Source of the DNA: Escherichia coli
Lineage (GTDB): Bacteria > Pseudomonadota > Gammaproteobacteria > Enterobacterales > Enterobacteriaceae
Length of the DNA stretch: 64,000 nucleotides
Strand: one strand, 5' to 3'
NCBI RefSeq assembly: GCF_003334385.1
Contig: NZ_QOWN01000026.1
This document shows positions 192 through 47,037 of this stretch, one piece after another. How positions within the stretch are numbered: position 1 is the first letter of the stretch; each line of letters opens with the position of its first letter. The translations under genes were made by a program, and so were the position numbers. The notes below the pieces were generated by a model, which was not told the origin of the DNA, did not search any database, and saw only the letters and a program-made list of their open reading frames with translations.

Positions 192-2765
192 TTACTGGAC
201 GGCGACAATCCGGTCTTCATTAACTTCCAGGCGAATCACTTTACCCGGAACCAATTCACCAGACAGTATTTGCTGTGCCAGCGGGTTTTCGATCTGCTGC
301 TGAATTGCACGTTTCAGAGGACGTGCACCATAGACCGGATCGTAACCGTTCTCGCTCAGCAGTTTCAGCGCCTCGTCAGAAATGTGGATTTCATAACCAC
401 GTTCTTCCAGACGTTTGTACAGACGTTTCAACTGAATCTGCGCAATCGAGGCAATGTGCTGTTCACCCAGCGGATGGAAGACCACCACTTCATCGATACG
501 GTTAATGAATTCCGGACGGAAGTTATGGCTTACCACACCGAGCACCAGCTCTTTCATGTGCGCATAATCCAGTTCACCGAAGCGTTCCTGAATCAGATCG
601 GAACCGAGGTTAGAGGTCATAATGACGACCGTATTACGGAAGTCGACCGTTCTCCCTTGCCCGTCAGTCAGACGCCCATCATCCAGTACCTGCAACAGAA
701 TGTTGAAGACATCCGGATGCGCTTTTTCCACTTCATCCAGCAGGATGACGGAATACGGACGACGACGCACCGCTTCGGTCAGGTAGCCACCTTCTTCATA
801 ACCGACATATCCCGGAGGCGCACCAACCAAACGAGACACCGAGTGTTTCTCCATAAACTCGGACATATCGATACGGACCATCGCCTCGTCGCTATCAAAC
901 ATAAAGTTCGCCAGCGCCTTACAAAGCTCTGTTTTCCCCACACCAGTTGGGCCGAGGAACAGGAATGAACCAATCGGGCGATTTGGATCCGCCAGCCCCG
1001 CACGGCTACGACGAATAGCGTTAGATACCGCATCAACCGCTTCGTTCTGACCAATTACGCGATGGTGCAGTTCTTGCTCCATACGCAGCAGTTTTTCGCG
1101 CTCGCTTTCCATCATGCGAGAAACCGGAATCCCCGTCCAACGCGCCAGCACTTCAGCAATTTCGGCGTCGGTCACTTTATTACGCAACAGACGCATAGTT
1201 TTGCCTTCGAGCTGCGTTGCGGCTTCCAGTTGCTTTTCCAGTTCCGGGATTTTGCCGTATTGCAGTTCAGACATCCGCGCCAGGTCCCCCACACGGCGAG
1301 CCTGTTCAATAGCGATTTTCGCCTGTTCCAGTTCCGCTTTAATGGTCTGCGTACCAGAAAGCGATGCCTTCTCTGCTTTCCACTCTTCTTCTAACTCGGA
1401 GTACTGACGTTCTTTGTCGCTCAGTTCTTCGTTGAGCATATCCAGACGTTTTTTACTGGCTTCATCAGACTCTTTCATTAACGCCTGTTGTTCCAGTTTG
1501 AGCTGGATGATACGACGATCGAGTCGGTCGAGTTCTTCTGGTTTTGAGTCAATCTGCATACGAATGCTGGATGCTGCTTCATCGATCAGGTCGATGGCTT
1601 TATCCGGCAGCTGACGGTCAGCAATGTAGCGATGAGACAACGTCGCCGCTGCAACAATTGCCGGGTCAGTAATTTGCACATGGTGGTGCAATTCGTAACG
1701 TTCTTTCAGGCCACGCAGAATCGCAATGGTATCTTCAACAGAAGGCTCGGCAACAAACACTTTCTGGAAACGACGTTCCAGCGCAGCATCTTTTTCAATG
1801 TACTGGCGATATTCGTCAAGCGTCGTGGCACCTACGCAGTGCAATTCACCACGCGCCAGCGCCGGTTTCAGCATGTTTCCGGCGTCCATTGCGCCATCGG
1901 CTTTACCCGCGCCGACCATGGTATGTAATTCGTCGATAAATAGGATGACGTTGCCTTCCTGTTTGGCAAGATCGTTAAGCACGCCTTTTAAACGTTCTTC
2001 AAACTCACCGCGATATTTCGCCCCAGCCACCAGCGCGCCCATATCCAGCGCCAGTACCCGGCGGCCTTTCAACCCTTCCGGCACTTCGCCGTTGATAATA
2101 CGCTGCGCCAGACCTTCAACGATGGCAGTTTTACCGACGCCGGGTTCACCAATCAGTACCGGGTTATTTTTAGTACGACGTTGCAGCACCTGAATGGTAC
2201 GGCGAATTTCTTCATCACGACCAATCACCGGATCGAGTTTGCCCTGTTCGGCTCGTTCGGTAAGGTCGATGGTATATTTTTTCAAAGCCTGACGTTGGTC
2301 TTCAGCACCTTGATCGTTCACGCTTTCACCTCCACGCATTTGTTCAATCGCTTGAGTAATGTTGGCGGTGGTCGCCCCTGCTGCTTTCAGGATGTCGGCC
2401 AGCGTGCCGCGAGACTCAAGTGCCGCCAGAACGAACAGTTCTGACGAGATAAAGTTATCACCACGTTTTTGCGCCAGCTTGTCGCAAAGATTAAGAACGC
2501 GCACCAGATCCTGTGATGGCTGGACATCACCACCAGTACCTTCAACCTGCGGTAAACGATTTAATGCCTGATTGATATCTGTGCGCAACTGGCCAGCATT
2601 TATGCCAGCGGATGTTAATAAAGGACTAACCGAACCCCCTTCCTGATTCAGCAGGGCGCTCATTAAATGAAGTGGTTCGATAAATTGGTTGTCGTGCCCG
2701 AGTGCAAGTGATTGGGCATCGGCAAGAGCAAGCTGGAATTTATTAGTAAGACGATCCAGACGCAT
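192..2765 (-). CDS. clpB: ClpB disaggregase (AAA+ chaperone, Hsp100)
   Basis: 861-aa ORF with two Walker A motifs ([16 protein letters not shown]); I place the start at the internal [10 protein letters not shown] methionine, giving 857 aa. Confidence 0.97.
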
Positions 2766-2799
2766 AACTCCTCCCATAACGGATCAAAGTTGCTACTGG

Positions 2800-2835
2800 A
2801 GATTAAATGAGGTCATCCCTCAATTATTCAAGGTT
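2800..2835 (-). promoter_or_regulatory. sigma32 heat-shock promoter of clpB
   Basis: Minus strand reads CTTGAAT (-35) ... CCTCATTTA (-10), matching sigma32 consensus CTTGAA / CCCCATnT, upstream of the clpB start. Confidence 0.7.
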
Positions 2836-24184: not shown

Positions 24185-24547
24185 GGGGCTGATTCTGGAT
24201 TCGACGGGATTTGCGAAACCCAAGGTGCATGCCGAGGGGCGGTTGGCCTCGTAAAAAGCCGCAAAAAATAGTCGCAAACGACGAAAACTACGCTTTAGCA
24301 GCTTAATAACCTGCTTAGAGCCCTCTCTCCCTAGCCTCCGCTCTTAGGACGGGGATCAAGAGAGGTCAAACCCAAAAGAGATCGCGTGGAAGCCCTGCCT
24401 GGGGTTGAAGCGTTAAAACTTAATCAGGCTAGTTTGTTAGTGGCGTGTCCGTCCGCAGCTGGCAAGCGAATGTAAAGACTGACTAAGCATGTAGTACCGA
24501 GGATGTAGGAATTTCGGACGCGGGTTCAACTCCCGCCAGCTCCACCA
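24185..24547 (+). ncRNA. ssrA: tmRNA (transfer-messenger RNA)
   Basis: Starts GGGGCTGATTCTGGATTCGACGGG, ends GGGTTCAACTCCCGCCAGCTCCACCA; tag ORF GCA AAC GAC GAA AAC TAC GCT TTA GCA GCT TAA (ANDENYALAA) at 24274-24306. Confidence 0.97.
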
Positions 24548-24671
24548 ATCATGATTGGACGGTGTAAGGACAACACCAACAAAAACAGGAAGTTAGAAGT
24601 CTCAGCAAAACACCGACCAGACGGTGAGGAGACATAAAAGGATACGCAAAGGAGCCGCGGCTCCTGGTAAC

Positions 24672-43772: not shown

Positions 43773-44072
43773 ATGACTGAACTCGCGCAATTACAGGCCA
43801 GTGCCGAACAGGCAGCGGCCTTATTGAAAGCAATGAGCCACCCTAAACGATTGCTGATTCTGTGCATGCTTAGCGGTTCCCCCGGCACCAGCGCGGGAGA
43901 GCTGACGCGCATTACCGGACTGAGTGCCTCTGCGACATCACAGCATCTCGCTCGTATGCGGGACGAAGGGCTTATCGACAGCCAACGGGATGCCCAACGC
44001 ATTCTATATTCCATTAAAAATGAGGCGGTAAATGCCATTATCGCCACCCTGAAAAATGTCTATTGTCCGTAA
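43773..44072 (+). CDS. ygaV: ArsR-family transcriptional regulator YgaV
   Basis: 99-aa ORF with ArsR-type HTH. Confidence 0.9.
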   Translation: MTELAQLQASAEQAAALLKAMSHPKRLLILCMLSGSPGTSAGELTRITGLSASATSQHLARMRDEGLIDSQRDAQRILYSIKNEAVNAIIATLKNVYCP

Positions 44073-44081
44073 GGAGTCACT

Positions 44082-44606
44082 ATGGCTTTGACAACCATTT
44101 CGCCGCATGATGCACAAGAATTAATCGCACGCGGCGCAAAGTTAATCGATATTCGTGATGCTGATGAATATCTTCGTGAACATATTCCTGAAGCAGATCT
44201 GGCTCCATTATCCGTGCTGGAACAGTCAGGTCTTCCGGCTAAATTACGTCACGAGCAAATTATATTCCACTGCCAGGCAGGTAAACGCACCAGTAATAAT
44301 GCCGATAAATTAGCAGCGATTGCCGCCCCCGCAGAAATCTTTTTACTCGAAGATGGGATTGATGGCTGGAAAAAAGCAGGATTGCCAGTAGCGGTAAATA
44401 AATCTCAACCCTTGCCGTTAATGCGCCAGGTGCAGATCGCTGCGGGTGGTTTAATATTAATCGGCGTTGTACTGGGTTATACCGTAAATAGCGGTTTCTT
44501 CTTATTAAGTGGCTTTGTTGGTGCCGGGTTACTGTTTGCAGGAATCAGCGGTTTTTGTGGAATGGCAAGGTTGTTAGATAAGATGCCGTGGAACCAACGA
44601 GCTTGA
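44082..44606 (+). CDS. ygaP: Rhodanese-domain inner-membrane protein YgaP
   Basis: 174-aa ORF with rhodanese catalytic Cys loop (CQAGKRT) and C-terminal TM helices. Confidence 0.9.
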
Positions 44607-44652
44607 GAAGCGACGCCGGACGCGCCCTAGCAGCGACATCCGGCCTCAGTAA

Positions 44653-45057
44653 TTAGATCAGGAAATCGTCGAGAGATTTACCTTCTGCCAGCGCCTGAGC
44701 AATTGGCTTCGGTGTACGGCCCTGACCGGTCCAGGTTTTAGTTTCACCGTTAACATCGGTGAATTTATATTTCGCCGGACGCGGCTGGCGTTTTTTACCA
44801 GCGCGTGGTGCAGCAGCAGAGCTATTACCCAATAACTCTTCCGGGTTAATTCCGTCAGCTTTCATCAGCTCCAGCCAGGTGCTAATTTTTTCCTGGCGCT
44901 CTGCCAGTTCACGCTGCTGCTGTTCTTCTTCTTCACGTCTTTCTTTAGTGACAACCCTGAATTTTTCGAGCATTTCTTCAAGAACGTCAATGGAGAATTC
45001 GCGAGCCATCGCACGGAGGGTGCGAATGTTATTTAAACTTTGTAACATTACGGACAT
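44653..45057 (-). CDS. stpA: H-NS paralogue StpA
   Basis: 134-aa ORF recognised as StpA. Confidence 0.95.
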
Positions 45058-45725
45058 AATAAAGAAAACCTTTTAACGCCAAAACAAAAAAAGTATTTCG
45101 TCGCGTAGTGTAAGCGATCACTTATTATATTTCCACAAAATTTAATCTATTTACAGTCCTGCGCGAGATTATTTCAGCTGTTATTTTCTGAAACTCTCAG
45201 AATAATTTCAAGATTATATATTAGCCATTTTGATGAGTAATTTAGATTATTGGTGAACAGAGCGGCGCTCTCTGCTCGCTAATTCCGCAAGCCTGACAAA
45301 ATCAAAGTGAATAAAAATGCAATATAACAGAATAAAAGAAAACATCCATCACTGGTGCTTTCTGCTGTTAATGTACATTGTCTGGCATAAAAAATGCTGA
45401 AAATGACCCAGCTACTACATACACCGAATTCTCTACGCTTATAGCGTTACCTCACCCCCAAACTTTCATTAGTGATATTAAAGGTAAGGCCATATCTAAT
45501 TGATTTAATTAAAAATAAATCATATCGGCATGTAAAAATCCACAATGTACAAAAAACGAGCCGTTACGGAATATTTTATCTACAAAAACTGACTAAATAA
45601 AAATTTTTCACTAATTGATTAGTCATAGCCAGCGATATACGCTATGCGAAAATGCAGATGGCAATGAGATCCACTGCTTTCATCTCCATTAACATCCCAT
45701 TACGCTTTTATTAAGGAGCATTAGC

Positions 45726-46175
45726 ATGTTCTCACCGCAGTCACGCTTGCGTCATGCAGTTGCAGATACGTTCGCGATGGTTGTTTACTGTTCTGTCGTG
45801 AACATGTGTATTGAAGTTTTCCTCTCCGGAATGAGCTTCGAACAGTCTTTTTATTCCAGATTGGTAGCGATTCCGGTGAACATCTTAATTGCATGGCCAT
45901 ACGGTATGTACCGTGATCTGTTTATGCGCGCGGCACGCAAAGTTAACCCGTCGGGCTGGATAAAAAATCTGGCGGATATCCTGGCTTATGTGACGTTCCA
46001 GTCACCGGTGTATGTGGCGATCTTGTTAGTGGTGGGCGCAGACTGGCATCAGATTATGGCGGCGGTCAGTTCAAACATCGTTGTTTCGATGTTGATGGGG
46101 GCGGTTTATGGCTACTTCCTCGATTATTGCCGCCGACTGTTTAAAGTCAGCCGTTACCAGCAGGTAAAAGCCTGA
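45726..46175 (+). CDS. alaE: L-alanine exporter AlaE
   Basis: 149-aa ORF, membrane protein recognised as AlaE/YgaW. Confidence 0.9.
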
Positions 46176-46211
46176 CTCTTCTTTTCGCGACTGGCATCGC
46201 CAGTCGCGTCT

Positions 46212-46556
46212 TTAACTGGCTTCGCCAAATAAACCATTCAAATAACGTTCAAGCGCAACACGCGAACTAAAGCCATGCGGGATACCGTAATGCTCGTGTC
46301 GCTCGCCTGCTAAATAGAGCGGAAATTGCTGGTAATGATCGCAAGTTTTAATATCGGAAGCGGGTTCAGCCAGTGTCGAACTGCGTTCTTTTAATGTTGG
46401 ATGAATTACCAGAGCGGTACGTCCCATTCGCGCTTCGCGATTAACATAGACATAATTTTCCCCACGGCGGTAACCATACGCTTTCTGGGTTACCACATCG
46501 ACAGTAAAACCGACTTTTTCAAGTACGCGCGCCACCTCGTCTGGTCGTAAATACAT
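46212..46556 (-). CDS. ygaC: Uncharacterised protein YgaC (DUF2002)
   Basis: 114-aa ORF recognised as YgaC. Confidence 0.85.
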
Positions 46557-46707
46557 ATTTGATCCTCGTTATTATCAACCGCGGGCCTACCTTACCTGAT
46601 TGCGCATTCACAACGCTTTCAGAAAAGTCCATAAAGCCGCGATGAACCTCAGTTAAGAAAATTATGGTCTACACTGAAAATTACATCGAATTCTAATGGG
46701 GGATCAT

Positions 46708-47037
46708 ATGTTTAACCGACCGAACCGCAACGACGTTGATGATGGCGTGCAGGATATCCAGAATGATGTCAATCAATTAGCTGACAGCCTCGAATCTGTA
46801 TTGAAGTCCTGGGGCAGCGACGCCAAAGGGGAAGCTGAAGCCGCACGCAGTAAAGCTCAGGCATTGCTGAAAGAAACCAGGGCGCGAATGCATGGTCGTA
46901 CTCGCGTCCAGCAAGCCGCGCGCGATGCCGTTGGCTGCGCGGATTCTTTTGTTCGTGAAAGACCCTGGTGTAGCGTGGGTACAGCAGCTGCGGTAGGTAT
47001 TTTTATCGGCGCACTGTTAAGCATGCGCAAATCGTAG
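46708..47037 (+). CDS. ygaM: ElaB/YqjD-family membrane-anchored protein YgaM
   Basis: ORF 46696-47037; start placed at MFNRPNRNDVDDG to give 109 aa; C-terminal TM anchor. Confidence 0.85.
   Translation: MFNRPNRNDVDDGVQDIQNDVNQLADSLESVLKSWGSDAKGEAEAARSKAQALLKETRARMHGRTRVQQAARDAVGCADSFVRERPWCSVGTAAAVGIFIGALLSMRKS

What the first reader, a model, noticed from the sequence alone, without database searches (positions are those of the whole stretch)
45058..45725. Unusually long AT-rich intergenic region between divergent stpA and alaE
About 670 bp with no ORF of 60 aa or more, very AT-rich with A/T tracts, typical of H-NS/StpA-bound regulatory DNA. It is large enough to hold an unannotated small RNA, a small protein or a long 5' leader.
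Basis: seen in the sequence. Interest (0 to 1): 0.25.

Follow-up and report, generated by a model that had tools for sequence, protein, structure and literature searches.

The report
Known stpA–alaE shared regulatory spacer
The long AT-rich gap between stpA and alaE is real, but it is the already-studied shared control region of these two E. coli genes (bound by Lrp, H-NS and ArgR), and nothing found here points to a hidden RNA or small-protein gene.

Summary
Window 45058-45725 is a 668-bp gap between divergent stpA and alaE. It has 33.8% GC, is enriched in A/T runs, and its longest internal ORF is 42 aa. It is identical to E. coli K-12 MG1655 2798496-2799163 and present in 5420 of 5426 complete E. 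coli genomes.

It is ordinary, already-known regulatory DNA. Published work places a strong Lrp peak here that bridges to a second peak in ygaP. It also reports Lrp control of both genes, H-NS and sigma70 holoenzyme binding in the spacer, a sigmaS-RNAP peak at the alaE promoter and ArgR binding upstream of alaE.

Comparison of 58 enterobacterial species shows three parts:
- a conserved stpA-proximal module of about 80 bp;
- a conserved alaE-proximal module of about 155 bp plus a leader of about 75 nt;
- a central stretch of about 350 bp that keeps its length and AT-richness but not its sequence (55-59% identity even within Escherichia).

The hidden-gene idea finds no support. There is no annotation, no Rfam match and no Term-seq 3' end. 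Small ORFs are broken between strains, and no leader structure is conserved. One K-12 minus-strand hairpin is not maintained in other strains. TSS data could not be reached, so low-level or H-NS-silenced transcription is not excluded.

The parts
45058..45725 (.). Whole stpA-alaE divergent intergenic region (668 bp, 33.8% GC); identical to MG1655 2798496-2799163
   Evidence: present once per genome in 5420/5426 complete E. coli genomes
45058..45140 (-). stpA-proximal conserved module. It holds the stpA leader with an SD-like AAGG (reverse complement of 45069-72), a perfect TATAAT on the minus strand (45129->45124) and the invariant TTTCCA block (45130-35). An alternative reading is -35 TGGAAA / 17 bp / -10 TACACT (45135->45107). 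Promoter positions are predicted, not mapped.
   Evidence: 93-96% identity across Escherichia species, and no variable site at 45087-45162 among 5 E. coli strains; conserved columns across 27 enterobacteria
45141..45494 (.). Fast-evolving AT-rich centre (35.9% GC). Length and composition are conserved but sequence is not. Inferred to be a scaffold for H-NS/StpA and Lrp, with short conserved islands.
   Evidence: 55-59% identity between E. coli and E. albertii or cryptic clades, while neighbouring IGRs are 88-95% and the flanking genes 90-93%; most of the 52 sites that vary among five E. coli strains lie here; IGR length 475-789 bp and GC 0.31-0.43 in 58 species
45308..45321 (+). ARG-box-like palindrome TGAATAAAAATGCA on a conserved island; candidate ArgR site
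   Evidence: Only 1-mismatch match to TGAATWWWWATTCA in the 64-kb window; conserved as TGnATAAAnATGCA in Escherichia; ArgR ChIP-exo and EMSA upstream of ygaW reported in PMC4381063, although the exact position in that paper was not available
45495..45650 (+). alaE upstream regulatory module (28.2% GC). It holds the conserved blocks TTGATTTA (45501-08) and AAAAATCC (45534-41), an Lrp-consensus-like CGGAATATTTTATCTACAAAAA (45566-45588), a UP-element-like AAATAAAAATTTTT (45596-45609), and a predicted -35 TTGATT (45615-20) and -10 TACGCT (45638-43).
   Evidence: Strongest cross-genus conservation of the IGR; AAATAAAAAT lies about 130 nt upstream of alaE in 75 of 80 species, including 20 of 22 without stpA upstream; the sigmaS-RNAP ChIP peak converts to about 45640-45789; Lrp peak and Lrp-dependent PalaE-lacZ
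45651..45725 (+). Predicted alaE 5' leader (about 75 nt) with SD AAGGAG (45713-18). It is poorly conserved apart from the SD and a short CACT motif.
   Evidence: only a 5-bp SD/start hairpin, 0 compensatory pairs, -2.8 kcal/mol; fold z-score -1.08
45652..45714 (+). 20-codon upstream [23 protein letters not shown] ending 11 nt before the alaE ATG. It is lineage-restricted and probably not functional.
   Evidence: Intact in E. coli, MOD1-EC7003 and, reading the alignment by eye, E. albertii; cut to 5 codons in three cryptic-clade genomes; no ATG in other genera; no SD upstream
45386..45536 (-). Candidate K-12 minus-strand transcript, considered and not supported. It combines a promoter-like TTTACA-17-TTTAAT (45536->45508), a 13-bp hairpin (45491->45446) and a weak hairpin plus U-run (45412->45386).
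   Evidence: Fold z-score -3.86 in K-12; one stem arm varies without compensation and the terminator-like stem is lost in other E. coli; the promoter hexamers are not kept in other Escherichia; no Term-seq 3' end

Best explanation
The 668 bp are the shared, divergently read control region of stpA and alaE. They are not a gene-bearing gap. The region has three parts. (1) A conserved stpA-proximal module of about 80 bp carries the stpA core promoter and a short leader. (2) A conserved alaE-proximal module of about 155 bp carries Lrp-type sites, an A/T-rich UP-like element and a weak -35/-10. That promoder needs activation: Lrp activates alaE in the presence of alanine or leucine. A leader of about 75 nt follows. 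(3) A central stretch of about 350 bp is AT-rich and rich in A-tracts. Its length and composition are kept but its sequence is free to drift. It serves as a platform on which H-NS/StpA filaments silence the region and Lrp oligomers bind and bridge to a second site in ygaP. Short islands such as an ARG box add further inputs. Shown directly or by cited experiments: the anatomy, the conservation pattern, Lrp/H-NS/sigma70/sigmaS/ArgR occupancy, and Lrp-dependent expression of both genes. Inferred: the exact promoter hexamers and start sites, the assignment of individual conserved blocks to Lrp or ArgR, and the scaffold role of the centre.
For: Identity to MG1655 and the absence of annotated features. 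The divergent stpA<>alaE arrangement, with an IGR of 475-789 bp at GC 0.31-0.43, is kept in 58 of 80 species sampled. Conservation is confined to the two ends and small islands. The alaE-side element AAATAAAAAT is present in 75 of 80 species, whether or not stpA is upstream. Literature: PMC10127797 reports two Lrp peaks (one at the Lrp-occupied stpA/alaE promoter region, one in ygaP). Lrp activates alaE in LIV medium and slightly represses it in minimal medium. Removing the ygaP peak cuts Lrp activation of stpA more than 5-fold, and AFM shows leucine-sensitive Lrp bridging on this fragment. PMC3946193 lists the spacer as bound by sigma70 holoenzyme and marks it as containing H-NS sites. PMC4668568 summarises H-NS silencing and Lrp dependence of stpA. 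PMC4447067 has a sigmaS-RNAP peak over the predicted alaE promoter. PMC4381063 reports ArgR binding upstream of ygaW, confirmed by EMSA, and the best ARG-box match of the window lies on a conserved island. A/T runs are enriched beyond composition.
Against: Simple consensus scans do not single the region out. The Lrp consensus gives 3 three-mismatch matches in the IGR, and 110 in the window against 92 expected. The H-NS high-affinity motif gives a single two-mismatch match. Promoter positions are predictions. The generic scan did not report either of my proposed core promoters, and PMC3946193 predicts different hexamers (alaE 45472-45500; 'stpA' 45536->45508). The primary papers that mapped the stpA and alaE start sites were not available. 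The near-neutral divergence of the centre is equally compatible with it having no function at all.
Confidence: 0.85

Rival explanations
1. The centre of the gap encodes an unannotated small RNA. The best candidate is a minus-strand transcript of about 115 nt, starting near 45501 from the TTTACA-17-TTTAAT promoter-like site and ending at the hairpin plus U-run at 45412->45386.
For: Sigma70 holoenzyme binds the spacer in vitro, and these hexamers were picked by PMC3946193. The K-12 minus strand 45433-45532 folds unusually well (z -3.86, 1 of 200 shuffles). A terminator-like site is listed on the minus strand.
Against: The held Term-seq tables list no 3' end anywhere in 2798400-2799199, although the stpA ends at 2798048/55, 2798243 and 2798385 are listed. 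There is no Rfam match. The -10 hexamer lacks the key A at position 2. One stem arm varies among E. coli strains with no compensating change, and the terminator-like stem is lost in 4 of 5 other genomes. The segment is only 34-44% identical in other Escherichia species. A z-score near -3.9 is the extreme of 54 windows tested.
Confidence: 0.06
2. The gap encodes a small protein or a regulatory upstream ORF. Candidates are the 20-codon ORF 45652-45714 just before alaE, and the 32-codon minus-strand ORFs 45247-45345 and 45447-45545.
For: The 20-codon ORF would lie inside the predicted alaE leader. Its stop is 11 nt from the alaE ATG, so translational coupling or SD occlusion is conceivable. It is intact in E. 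coli, MOD1-EC7003 and E. albertii. The two 32-codon ORFs stay open in five E. coli strains.
Against: The upstream ORF has no SD, is cut to 5 codons in three cryptic-clade Escherichia genomes and has no start codon in other genera. All observed differences in the 32-codon ORFs change the amino acid, the start codon alternates ATG/GTG or is TTG, and both fail in the nearest outgroup. The other small ORFs carry stops, frameshifts or lost starts in some strain. Nothing is annotated in the curated K-12 record. No paper in the library links alaE with uORF, leader peptide, small protein or ribosome profiling.
Confidence: 0.05
3. One or both genes are also transcribed from distal promoters, giving long 5' leaders. 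For alaE this would be GTGATA-17-TCTAAT at 45472-45500 (leader about 220 nt). For stpA it would be TTGAAA-17-GAAAAT at 45211->45183 (leader about 120 nt).
For: Promoter-like hexamers were found by PMC3946193 and by the scan. Multiple promoters are common in long divergent spacers of stress genes (PMC3946193). This reading is compatible with the main explanation.
Against: These hexamers fall in poorly conserved sequence, whereas the conserved -35/-10-like blocks sit close to each gene. The leaders have no conserved structure or attenuator, and no premature 3' ends are listed. Promoter-like matches number 5 in the scanned region against 3.4 +/- 1.7 expected by chance.
Confidence: 0.15
4. The central 350 bp have no function. 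They are unconstrained spacer whose AT-richness simply reflects AT-biased mutation, and only the two proximal modules matter.
For: Divergence in the centre is at or beyond what the flanking genes suggest for neutral sites (55-59% identity against 90-93% for the flanking genes). Diversity within E. coli is 7.8% variable sites, against 1.6-3.2% in the genes. IS1 insertions are tolerated in natural isolates.
Against: A long (475 bp or more), AT-rich gap is kept in all 58 species that have the divergent arrangement, although deletions should shrink useless DNA. A/T runs exceed the composition-matched expectation. Conserved islands persist inside it, including an ARG box. Lrp, H-NS and RNAP occupancy are reported for the spacer.
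Confidence: 0.2

Closest known systems
Long divergent ('type-A') regulatory spacers of E. coli stress and nucleoid genes, e.g. csgD-csgB (755 bp), lrhA-alaA (920 bp) and nanC-fimB (1.46 kb), as described in PMC3946193
   Same: Divergent genes; a gap several times the median length; AT-rich; bound by sigma70 holoenzyme and H-NS; several transcription-factor inputs (here Lrp, ArgR, sigmaS-RNAP). The stpA-alaE spacer is itself listed in that paper's Table 1 with the HNS mark.
   Different: Fewer regulators are documented here than for csgD, and no sRNA or invertible element is involved.
Lrp-bridged promoter regions with double or secondary Lrp peaks, e.g. fadR-ycgB-dadAX (PMC10127797)
   Same: Two Lrp peaks about 1 kb apart, leucine-sensitive bridging and long-range effects on transcription. 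The stpA-alaE locus is that paper's own worked example.
   Different: None. This is the same locus, not an analogue.
H-NS-silenced AT-rich DNA (xenogeneic-silencing type targets)
   Same: Low GC, excess A-tracts, reported H-NS binding, and stpA repression by H-NS.
   Different: This is a core-genome locus, present once in 5420 of 5426 E. coli genomes and syntenic across Enterobacteriaceae. It is not horizontally acquired. There are no true plasmid or phage homologues: the hits are mislabelled chromosomes and one 1.7-kb unannotated record. No strong match to the TCGATAAATT nucleation motif was found.
Intergenic Hfq-type sRNA genes such as micA (luxS-gshA gap in the same window)
   Same: Both lie in an intergenic gap between divergent or convergent genes.
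   Different: micA is annotated, short and conserved, and has its own terminator. Here there is no annotation, no Rfam hit, no conserved promoter-terminator pair and no Term-seq 3' end.

Membership tests
Divergent-promoter regulatory intergenic region | Flanking genes transcribed away from each other, start codons facing the gap | tested here: met
   stpA on the minus strand ending at 45057, alaE on the plus strand from 45726; the arrangement is kept in 58 of 80 species
Divergent-promoter regulatory intergenic region | Gene-proximal sequence blocks under purifying selection (promoter, operator, leader) | tested here: met
   45058-45140 and 45495-45650 plus the SD are conserved across genera, and the centre is not
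Divergent-promoter regulatory intergenic region | Mapped transcription start sites for both genes inside the gap | not testable with these tools
   Only predictions and a sigmaS-RNAP ChIP peak. The primary mapping papers and TSS tables were not held, or were cut before this coordinate
Lrp-regulated promoter | Lrp occupancy and Lrp-dependent expression | not testable with these tools
   Taken from PMC10127797: ChIP peaks, lacZ and qRT-PCR in lrp mutants, AFM bridging
Lrp-regulated promoter | Matches to the Lrp consensus YAGHAWATTWTDCTR above chance | tested here: inconclusive
   3 three-mismatch matches in the IGR (about 1.1 expected from window density); window total 110 against 92 +/- 11 in shuffles. 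The most conserved block, CAGAGnATTTTATCG, matches 12 of 15 positions in other genera by eye
H-NS/StpA-bound DNA | AT-rich relative to the genome, with A-tracts in excess | tested here: met
   33.8% GC against 49.6%; runs of 4 or more: 22 against 10.9 +/- 2.9
H-NS/StpA-bound DNA | High-affinity nucleation motif TCGATAAATT | tested here: not met
   Only one two-mismatch match (45573-82) in the IGR
H-NS/StpA-bound DNA | Measured H-NS occupancy | not testable with these tools
   Genomic SELEX mark 'HNS' for this spacer in PMC3946193; no in vivo ChIP table was consulted
Independent small regulatory RNA gene | Own promoter and intrinsic terminator, both conserved among close relatives | tested here: not met
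   The only candidate pair (45536->45386, minus strand) is not maintained within E. coli or Escherichia
Independent small regulatory RNA gene | Conserved sequence or structure, or a match to a described family | tested here: not met
   No Rfam match at E of 10 or less with meaning (best 18 bits against a gathering score of 53) and none at gathering score in 9 orthologous loci; the centre is 55-59% identical within the genus
Independent small regulatory RNA gene | Detectable RNA 3' end | not testable with these tools
   Literature tables only: no Term-seq 3' end listed in 2798400-2799199 in the held supplements of PMC7815308
Small-protein gene or regulatory upstream ORF | Reading frame and start codon preserved among relatives, with mostly silent changes | tested here: not met
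   All eight ORFs of 20-42 codons are broken, lose their start or change only by amino-acid replacements; the alaE upstream ORF is cut in cryptic clades and absent outside Escherichia
Riboswitch or attenuator leader | Conserved leader secondary structure with covariation, or a terminator between the start site and the start codon | tested here: not met
   RNAalifold on 24 species gave 5 invariant pairs, 0 compensatory changes and -2.8 kcal/mol; no plus-strand terminator-like site at 45650-45725; fold z-score -1.08
Repetitive or mobile element remnant (REP, ERIC, IS) | Multiple copies per genome or homology to mobile DNA | tested here: not met
   The GC-rich island 45248-45300 occurs once per genome in 5419 genomes. 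The centre has no real plasmid or phage homologue

The most novel reading that the evidence does not exclude
The central 350 bp may be more than passive spacer. It could be a rapidly turning-over nucleoid-protein platform whose composition and length are selected while its sequence is not. Lineage-specific changes, including the E. coli-specific minus-strand hairpin and promoter-like segment at 45386-45536, would then retune stpA and alaE control, or give rise to an H-NS-silenced, species-specific transcript seen only when silencing is relieved.
Probability: 0.1. Interest if true: 0.3.

Novelty: already known. Interest (0 to 1): 0.1.

Why it matters
It matters little as a discovery. The locus is a published model for Lrp double peaks and DNA bridging, and for H-NS and Lrp control of stpA. 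The modest added value is a map. It shows which 80 bp and 155 bp are under selection across Enterobacteriaceae and where a likely ArgR box sits. It also shows that the central 350 bp keeps its length and AT content while its sequence drifts about as fast as neutral sites, or faster. That map is useful for anyone designing promoter fusions or deletions at this locus. It is also a clean example of constraint on composition rather than on sequence in nucleoid-protein-bound DNA.

Tried and rejected
1. Consensus scans for Lrp and for the H-NS nucleation motif did not discriminate the region. Both proteins bind degenerate AT-rich DNA, so I relied on published occupancy instead.

2. The generic promoter and terminator scan gave 5 promoter-like sites against 3.4 expected. 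None coincides with the conserved blocks, so they are treated as chance.

3. A sliding-window fold screen flagged the minus strand at 45433-45532 (z -3.9) and 45308-45432 (z -2.7). Comparison across E. coli strains showed no compensatory change, so these were rejected as K-12 chance features.

4. Small ORFs are not preserved and were rejected.

5. A conserved alaE leader structure was tested and rejected.

6. A mobile-element or repeat origin was tested and rejected.

7. Literature that could not be reached: the stpA promoter papers (PubMed 9006049, 8890170), the alaE-Lrp paper (28057466), Hori 2011, Thomason 2015 and Weaver 2019. The Kim 2012 TSS table and the Ettwiller 2016 GTF were cut before this coordinate. 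No ArgR supplement is held.

8. My first IGR ranking assumed collinearity with MG1655. Searches showed the window lacks CP4-57, and the ranking was redone.

9. The low identities from ygaM-nrdH onward probably reflect different gene content or misalignment in the outgroups, and were not used.

Full report
WHAT IS THERE. Window 45058-45725 is the gap between the start codon of stpA (minus strand, ORF 44653-45057) and the start codon of alaE (plus strand, ORF 45726-46175). RefSeq annotation of a 100%-identical strain and of K-12 MG1655 names the two genes and lists no feature between them. The 668 bp are base-for-base identical to MG1655 2798496-2799163. The stretch occurs exactly once, on the chromosome, in 5420 of 5426 complete E. 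coli genomes, mostly at 95-100% identity.

The window as a whole is K-12-like but lacks the CP4-57 prophage. Window 1-24548 equals MG1655 2731409-2755956, and 24525-64000 equals 2777964-2817431. For the region of interest, window position equals MG1655 position minus 2753438.

CHECK OF THE OBSERVATION. All parts hold.
- The longest ORF wholly inside the gap is 42 codons.
- GC is 33.8%, against 49.6% for the window and 40.3% for all inter-feature gaps of the window.
- A/T runs of 4 or more number 22, against 10.9 +/- 2.9 in composition-matched shuffles. Runs of 5 or more number 9, against 3.8 +/- 1.8.
- The gap is the second longest of 56 in the window (median 87.5 bp) and the longest of 10 divergent ones.

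ANATOMY FROM COMPARISON. A scan of one genome per species with AlaE returned 80 enterobacterial loci. In 58 of them stpA lies divergently upstream, and the gap is always long (475-789 bp, median 557) and AT-rich (GC 0.31-0.43, median 0.354, against 0.51 for the loci). Aligning 27 representatives shows conservation only at the two ends.

The stpA side (45058 to about 45140) contains:
- the SD-like AAGG;
- a perfect minus-strand TATAAT (45129->45124), shared with Salmonella and C. koseri;
- an almost invariant TTTCCA block;
- a conserved TAG-TGTA block. Together with TTTCCA this also fits a -35 TGGAAA / 17 bp / -10 TACACT promoter.

The alaE side (about 45495-45650) is the best conserved part. 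It contains:
- an Lrp-consensus-like CAGAGnATTTTATCgACAAAAA;
- an A/T-rich AAATAAAAATTTTT;
- CTAnTTGAT (a -35-like TTGATT at 45615-20);
- 17 bp later, ATATACgCTAT (a -10-like TACGCT at 45638-43).

AAATAAAAAT sits about 130 nt upstream of alaE in 75 of 80 species, including 20 of 22 that have no stpA upstream. It therefore belongs to alaE. These hexamers predict an alaE start near 45650 and a leader of about 75 nt. A published sigmaS-RNAP ChIP peak converts to about 45640-45789 and fits this.

THE CENTRE. Between about 45141 and 45494 conservation collapses, even within the genus. E. coli against E. albertii or the cryptic clades is 55-59% identical there. By contrast stpA is 90-92%, alaE 91-93%, and the neighbouring yqaE-ygaV and ygaC-ygaM gaps 88-95%.

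Among five E. coli strains, 52 of 668 IGR sites vary (7.8%), most of them between 45244 and 45593. The figures for stpA and alaE are 3.2% and 1.6%.

Short islands survive: GATATTATTTC, ATAAAnATGCA, CTTTnTGCTG, CATAAAAAATGCTGAA and ATTCTCTAC. One of them, TGAATAAAAATGCA at 45308-21, is the only 1-mismatch match to the ARG-box core in the whole 64-kb window.

The GC-richer patch at 45248-45300 is single-copy. The centre has no genuine plasmid or phage relatives.

WHAT IS ALREADY KNOWN.
- PMC10127797 uses the 'stpA-alaE region' as its example of double Lrp peaks. One peak is at the promoter region and one is inside ygaP. Lrp slightly represses alaE in minimal medium and strongly activates it with Leu/Ile/Val. 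Removing the ygaP peak lowers Lrp activation of stpA more than 5-fold. AFM shows leucine-sensitive Lrp bridging of this DNA.
- PMC6801825 summarises Lrp-dependent induction of alaE by L-alanine and L-leucine.
- PMC4668568 summarises H-NS silencing and Lrp dependence of stpA.
- PMC3946193 lists this spacer among type-A spacers bound by sigma70 holoenzyme and marks it as containing H-NS sites. It notes that long spacers are typical of multiply regulated stress genes.
- PMC4381063 reports ArgR binding upstream of ygaW (now alaE) by ChIP-exo and EMSA.

TESTS OF THE HIDDEN-GENE IDEA.
- RNA families: no meaningful Rfam match in 44000-47000 (best 18 bits against a gathering score of 53), and none at gathering score in nine orthologous loci.
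- RNA 3' ends: in the held Term-seq tables of PMC7815308 the listed ends jump from stpA (2798048/55, 2798243, 2798385) to 2800533. No number beginning 27984 to 27991 occurs in any of the four files.
- Structure: a sliding fold screen gave one notable window, the minus strand of 45433-45532 (z -3.86). With a promoter-like TTTACA-17-TTTAAT upstream and a weak hairpin plus U-run downstream, it could be read as an sRNA of about 115 nt. However, one stem arm varies among E. coli strains without compensation. The terminator-like stem is lost in other strains, and the promoter hexamers are not kept in other Escherichia.
- Small ORFs: all eight ORFs of 20-42 codons show frameshifts, stops, lost starts or only amino-acid-changing differences. 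The 20-codon ORF just upstream of alaE has no SD, is cut to five codons in three cryptic-clade genomes and has no ATG outside Escherichia.
- Leader: RNAalifold on 24 species finds only an invariant 5-bp SD/start hairpin with no covariation.
- Literature: no paper in the library joins alaE with uORF, leader peptide, small protein or ribosome profiling. None joins stpA with alaE or ygaW in an sRNA context.

MECHANISM, AND WHAT IS SHOWN AGAINST INFERRED.
- Shown here: the three-part anatomy, the conservation pattern, the composition and the lack of coding or structural signal.
- Shown by others: Lrp, H-NS, sigma70, sigmaS-RNAP and ArgR occupancy; Lrp-dependent regulation of both genes; Lrp bridging.
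- Inferred: the exact promoters and start sites; the assignment of conserved blocks to Lrp, ArgR or a UP element; and the view that the centre is kept long and AT-rich as a platform for H-NS/StpA filaments and Lrp oligomers rather than being inert.

The main alternative for the centre is unconstrained spacer at mutational AT equilibrium. Near-neutral divergence and tolerated IS1 insertions fit this. Retention of length in 58 species, the A-tract excess and the conserved islands argue against it.

LIMITS. I could not reach any TSS map, ribosome-profiling table or in vivo H-NS ChIP table covering this coordinate, nor the primary promoter-mapping papers. Weak, condition-specific or H-NS-silenced transcription inside the gap therefore remains possible.

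VERDICT. The feature is real and correctly located. It is an already characterised regulatory spacer, and there is no evidence for a hidden gene. Novelty: already known. Interest: low.

Noticed in passing
window 24525-24548 (junction); whole window: The window is K-12-like but not collinear with MG1655. The 22-kb cryptic prophage CP4-57 next to ssrA is absent: window 1-24548 equals MG1655 2731409-2755956, then 24525-64000 equals 2777964-2817431. About 25 mismatches are scattered over the 64 kb.
   Followed up: partly
L089 (NZ_AP027759.1), about window 45591; L090 (NZ_CP172108.1), about window 45399: Two natural E. coli isolates carry independent IS1 insertions inside this intergenic region. 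One sits within the conserved alaE upstream block. The other is accompanied by loss of the rest of the gap and of the alaE N-terminus (alaE annotated as a pseudogene).
   Followed up: partly
window 45141-45494: The centre of the gap is only 55-59% identical between E. coli and E. albertii or cryptic Escherichia clades, whereas the neighbouring intergenic regions are 88-95% identical. This is unusually fast turnover for a core-genome spacer.
   Followed up: yes
window 45308-45321: TGAATAAAAATGCA is the best ARG-box match in the whole window. It lies on a conserved island and is a likely site for the ArgR binding reported upstream of ygaW in PMC4381063.
   Followed up: partly
window 45739-45756 (inside alaE): AGTCACGCTTGCGTCATG, in codons 5-10 of alaE, is listed as an intragenic PhoB ChIP site (coordinate 2799166) without a transcriptional effect in PMC10294691.
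   Followed up: no
L016 about 2370-2495 (Citrobacter amalonaticus S646): A GC-rich insertion of about 130 bp lies immediately upstream of the alaE Shine-Dalgarno sequence in this species only. From memory its end (CCTGAAGTATAACGAGTATA) resembles an ERIC repeat. This was not tested.
   Followed up: no
window 47095 (+), MG1655 2800533: Term-seq (PMC7815308) lists an 'orphan' 3' end 190 nt upstream of nrdH, just after ygaM, and another on the opposite strand at 2800553. This points to a bidirectional terminator or an nrdH leader end.
   Followed up: no
window 44805 and 44947 (-), MG1655 2798243 and 2798385: Term-seq lists strong 3' ends inside the stpA coding sequence, 252 nt from the start codon and about 110 nt from it. 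These suggest stable 5' fragments or processing of stpA mRNA.
   Followed up: no
window 1900-2800 and 24185-24547: ARAGORN was run only on 1900-2800, which turned out to be the clpB/ryfD region; Rfam found RyfD at 2746-2800 (-). The true ssrA position in this window (about 24185-24547, from collinearity with K-12) was not rescanned.
   Followed up: partly
plasmid collection hits H29-H31: Three records in the plasmid collection that match this locus are 4.8-4.9 Mb long. They are E. coli chromosomes filed as plasmids.
   Followed up: no
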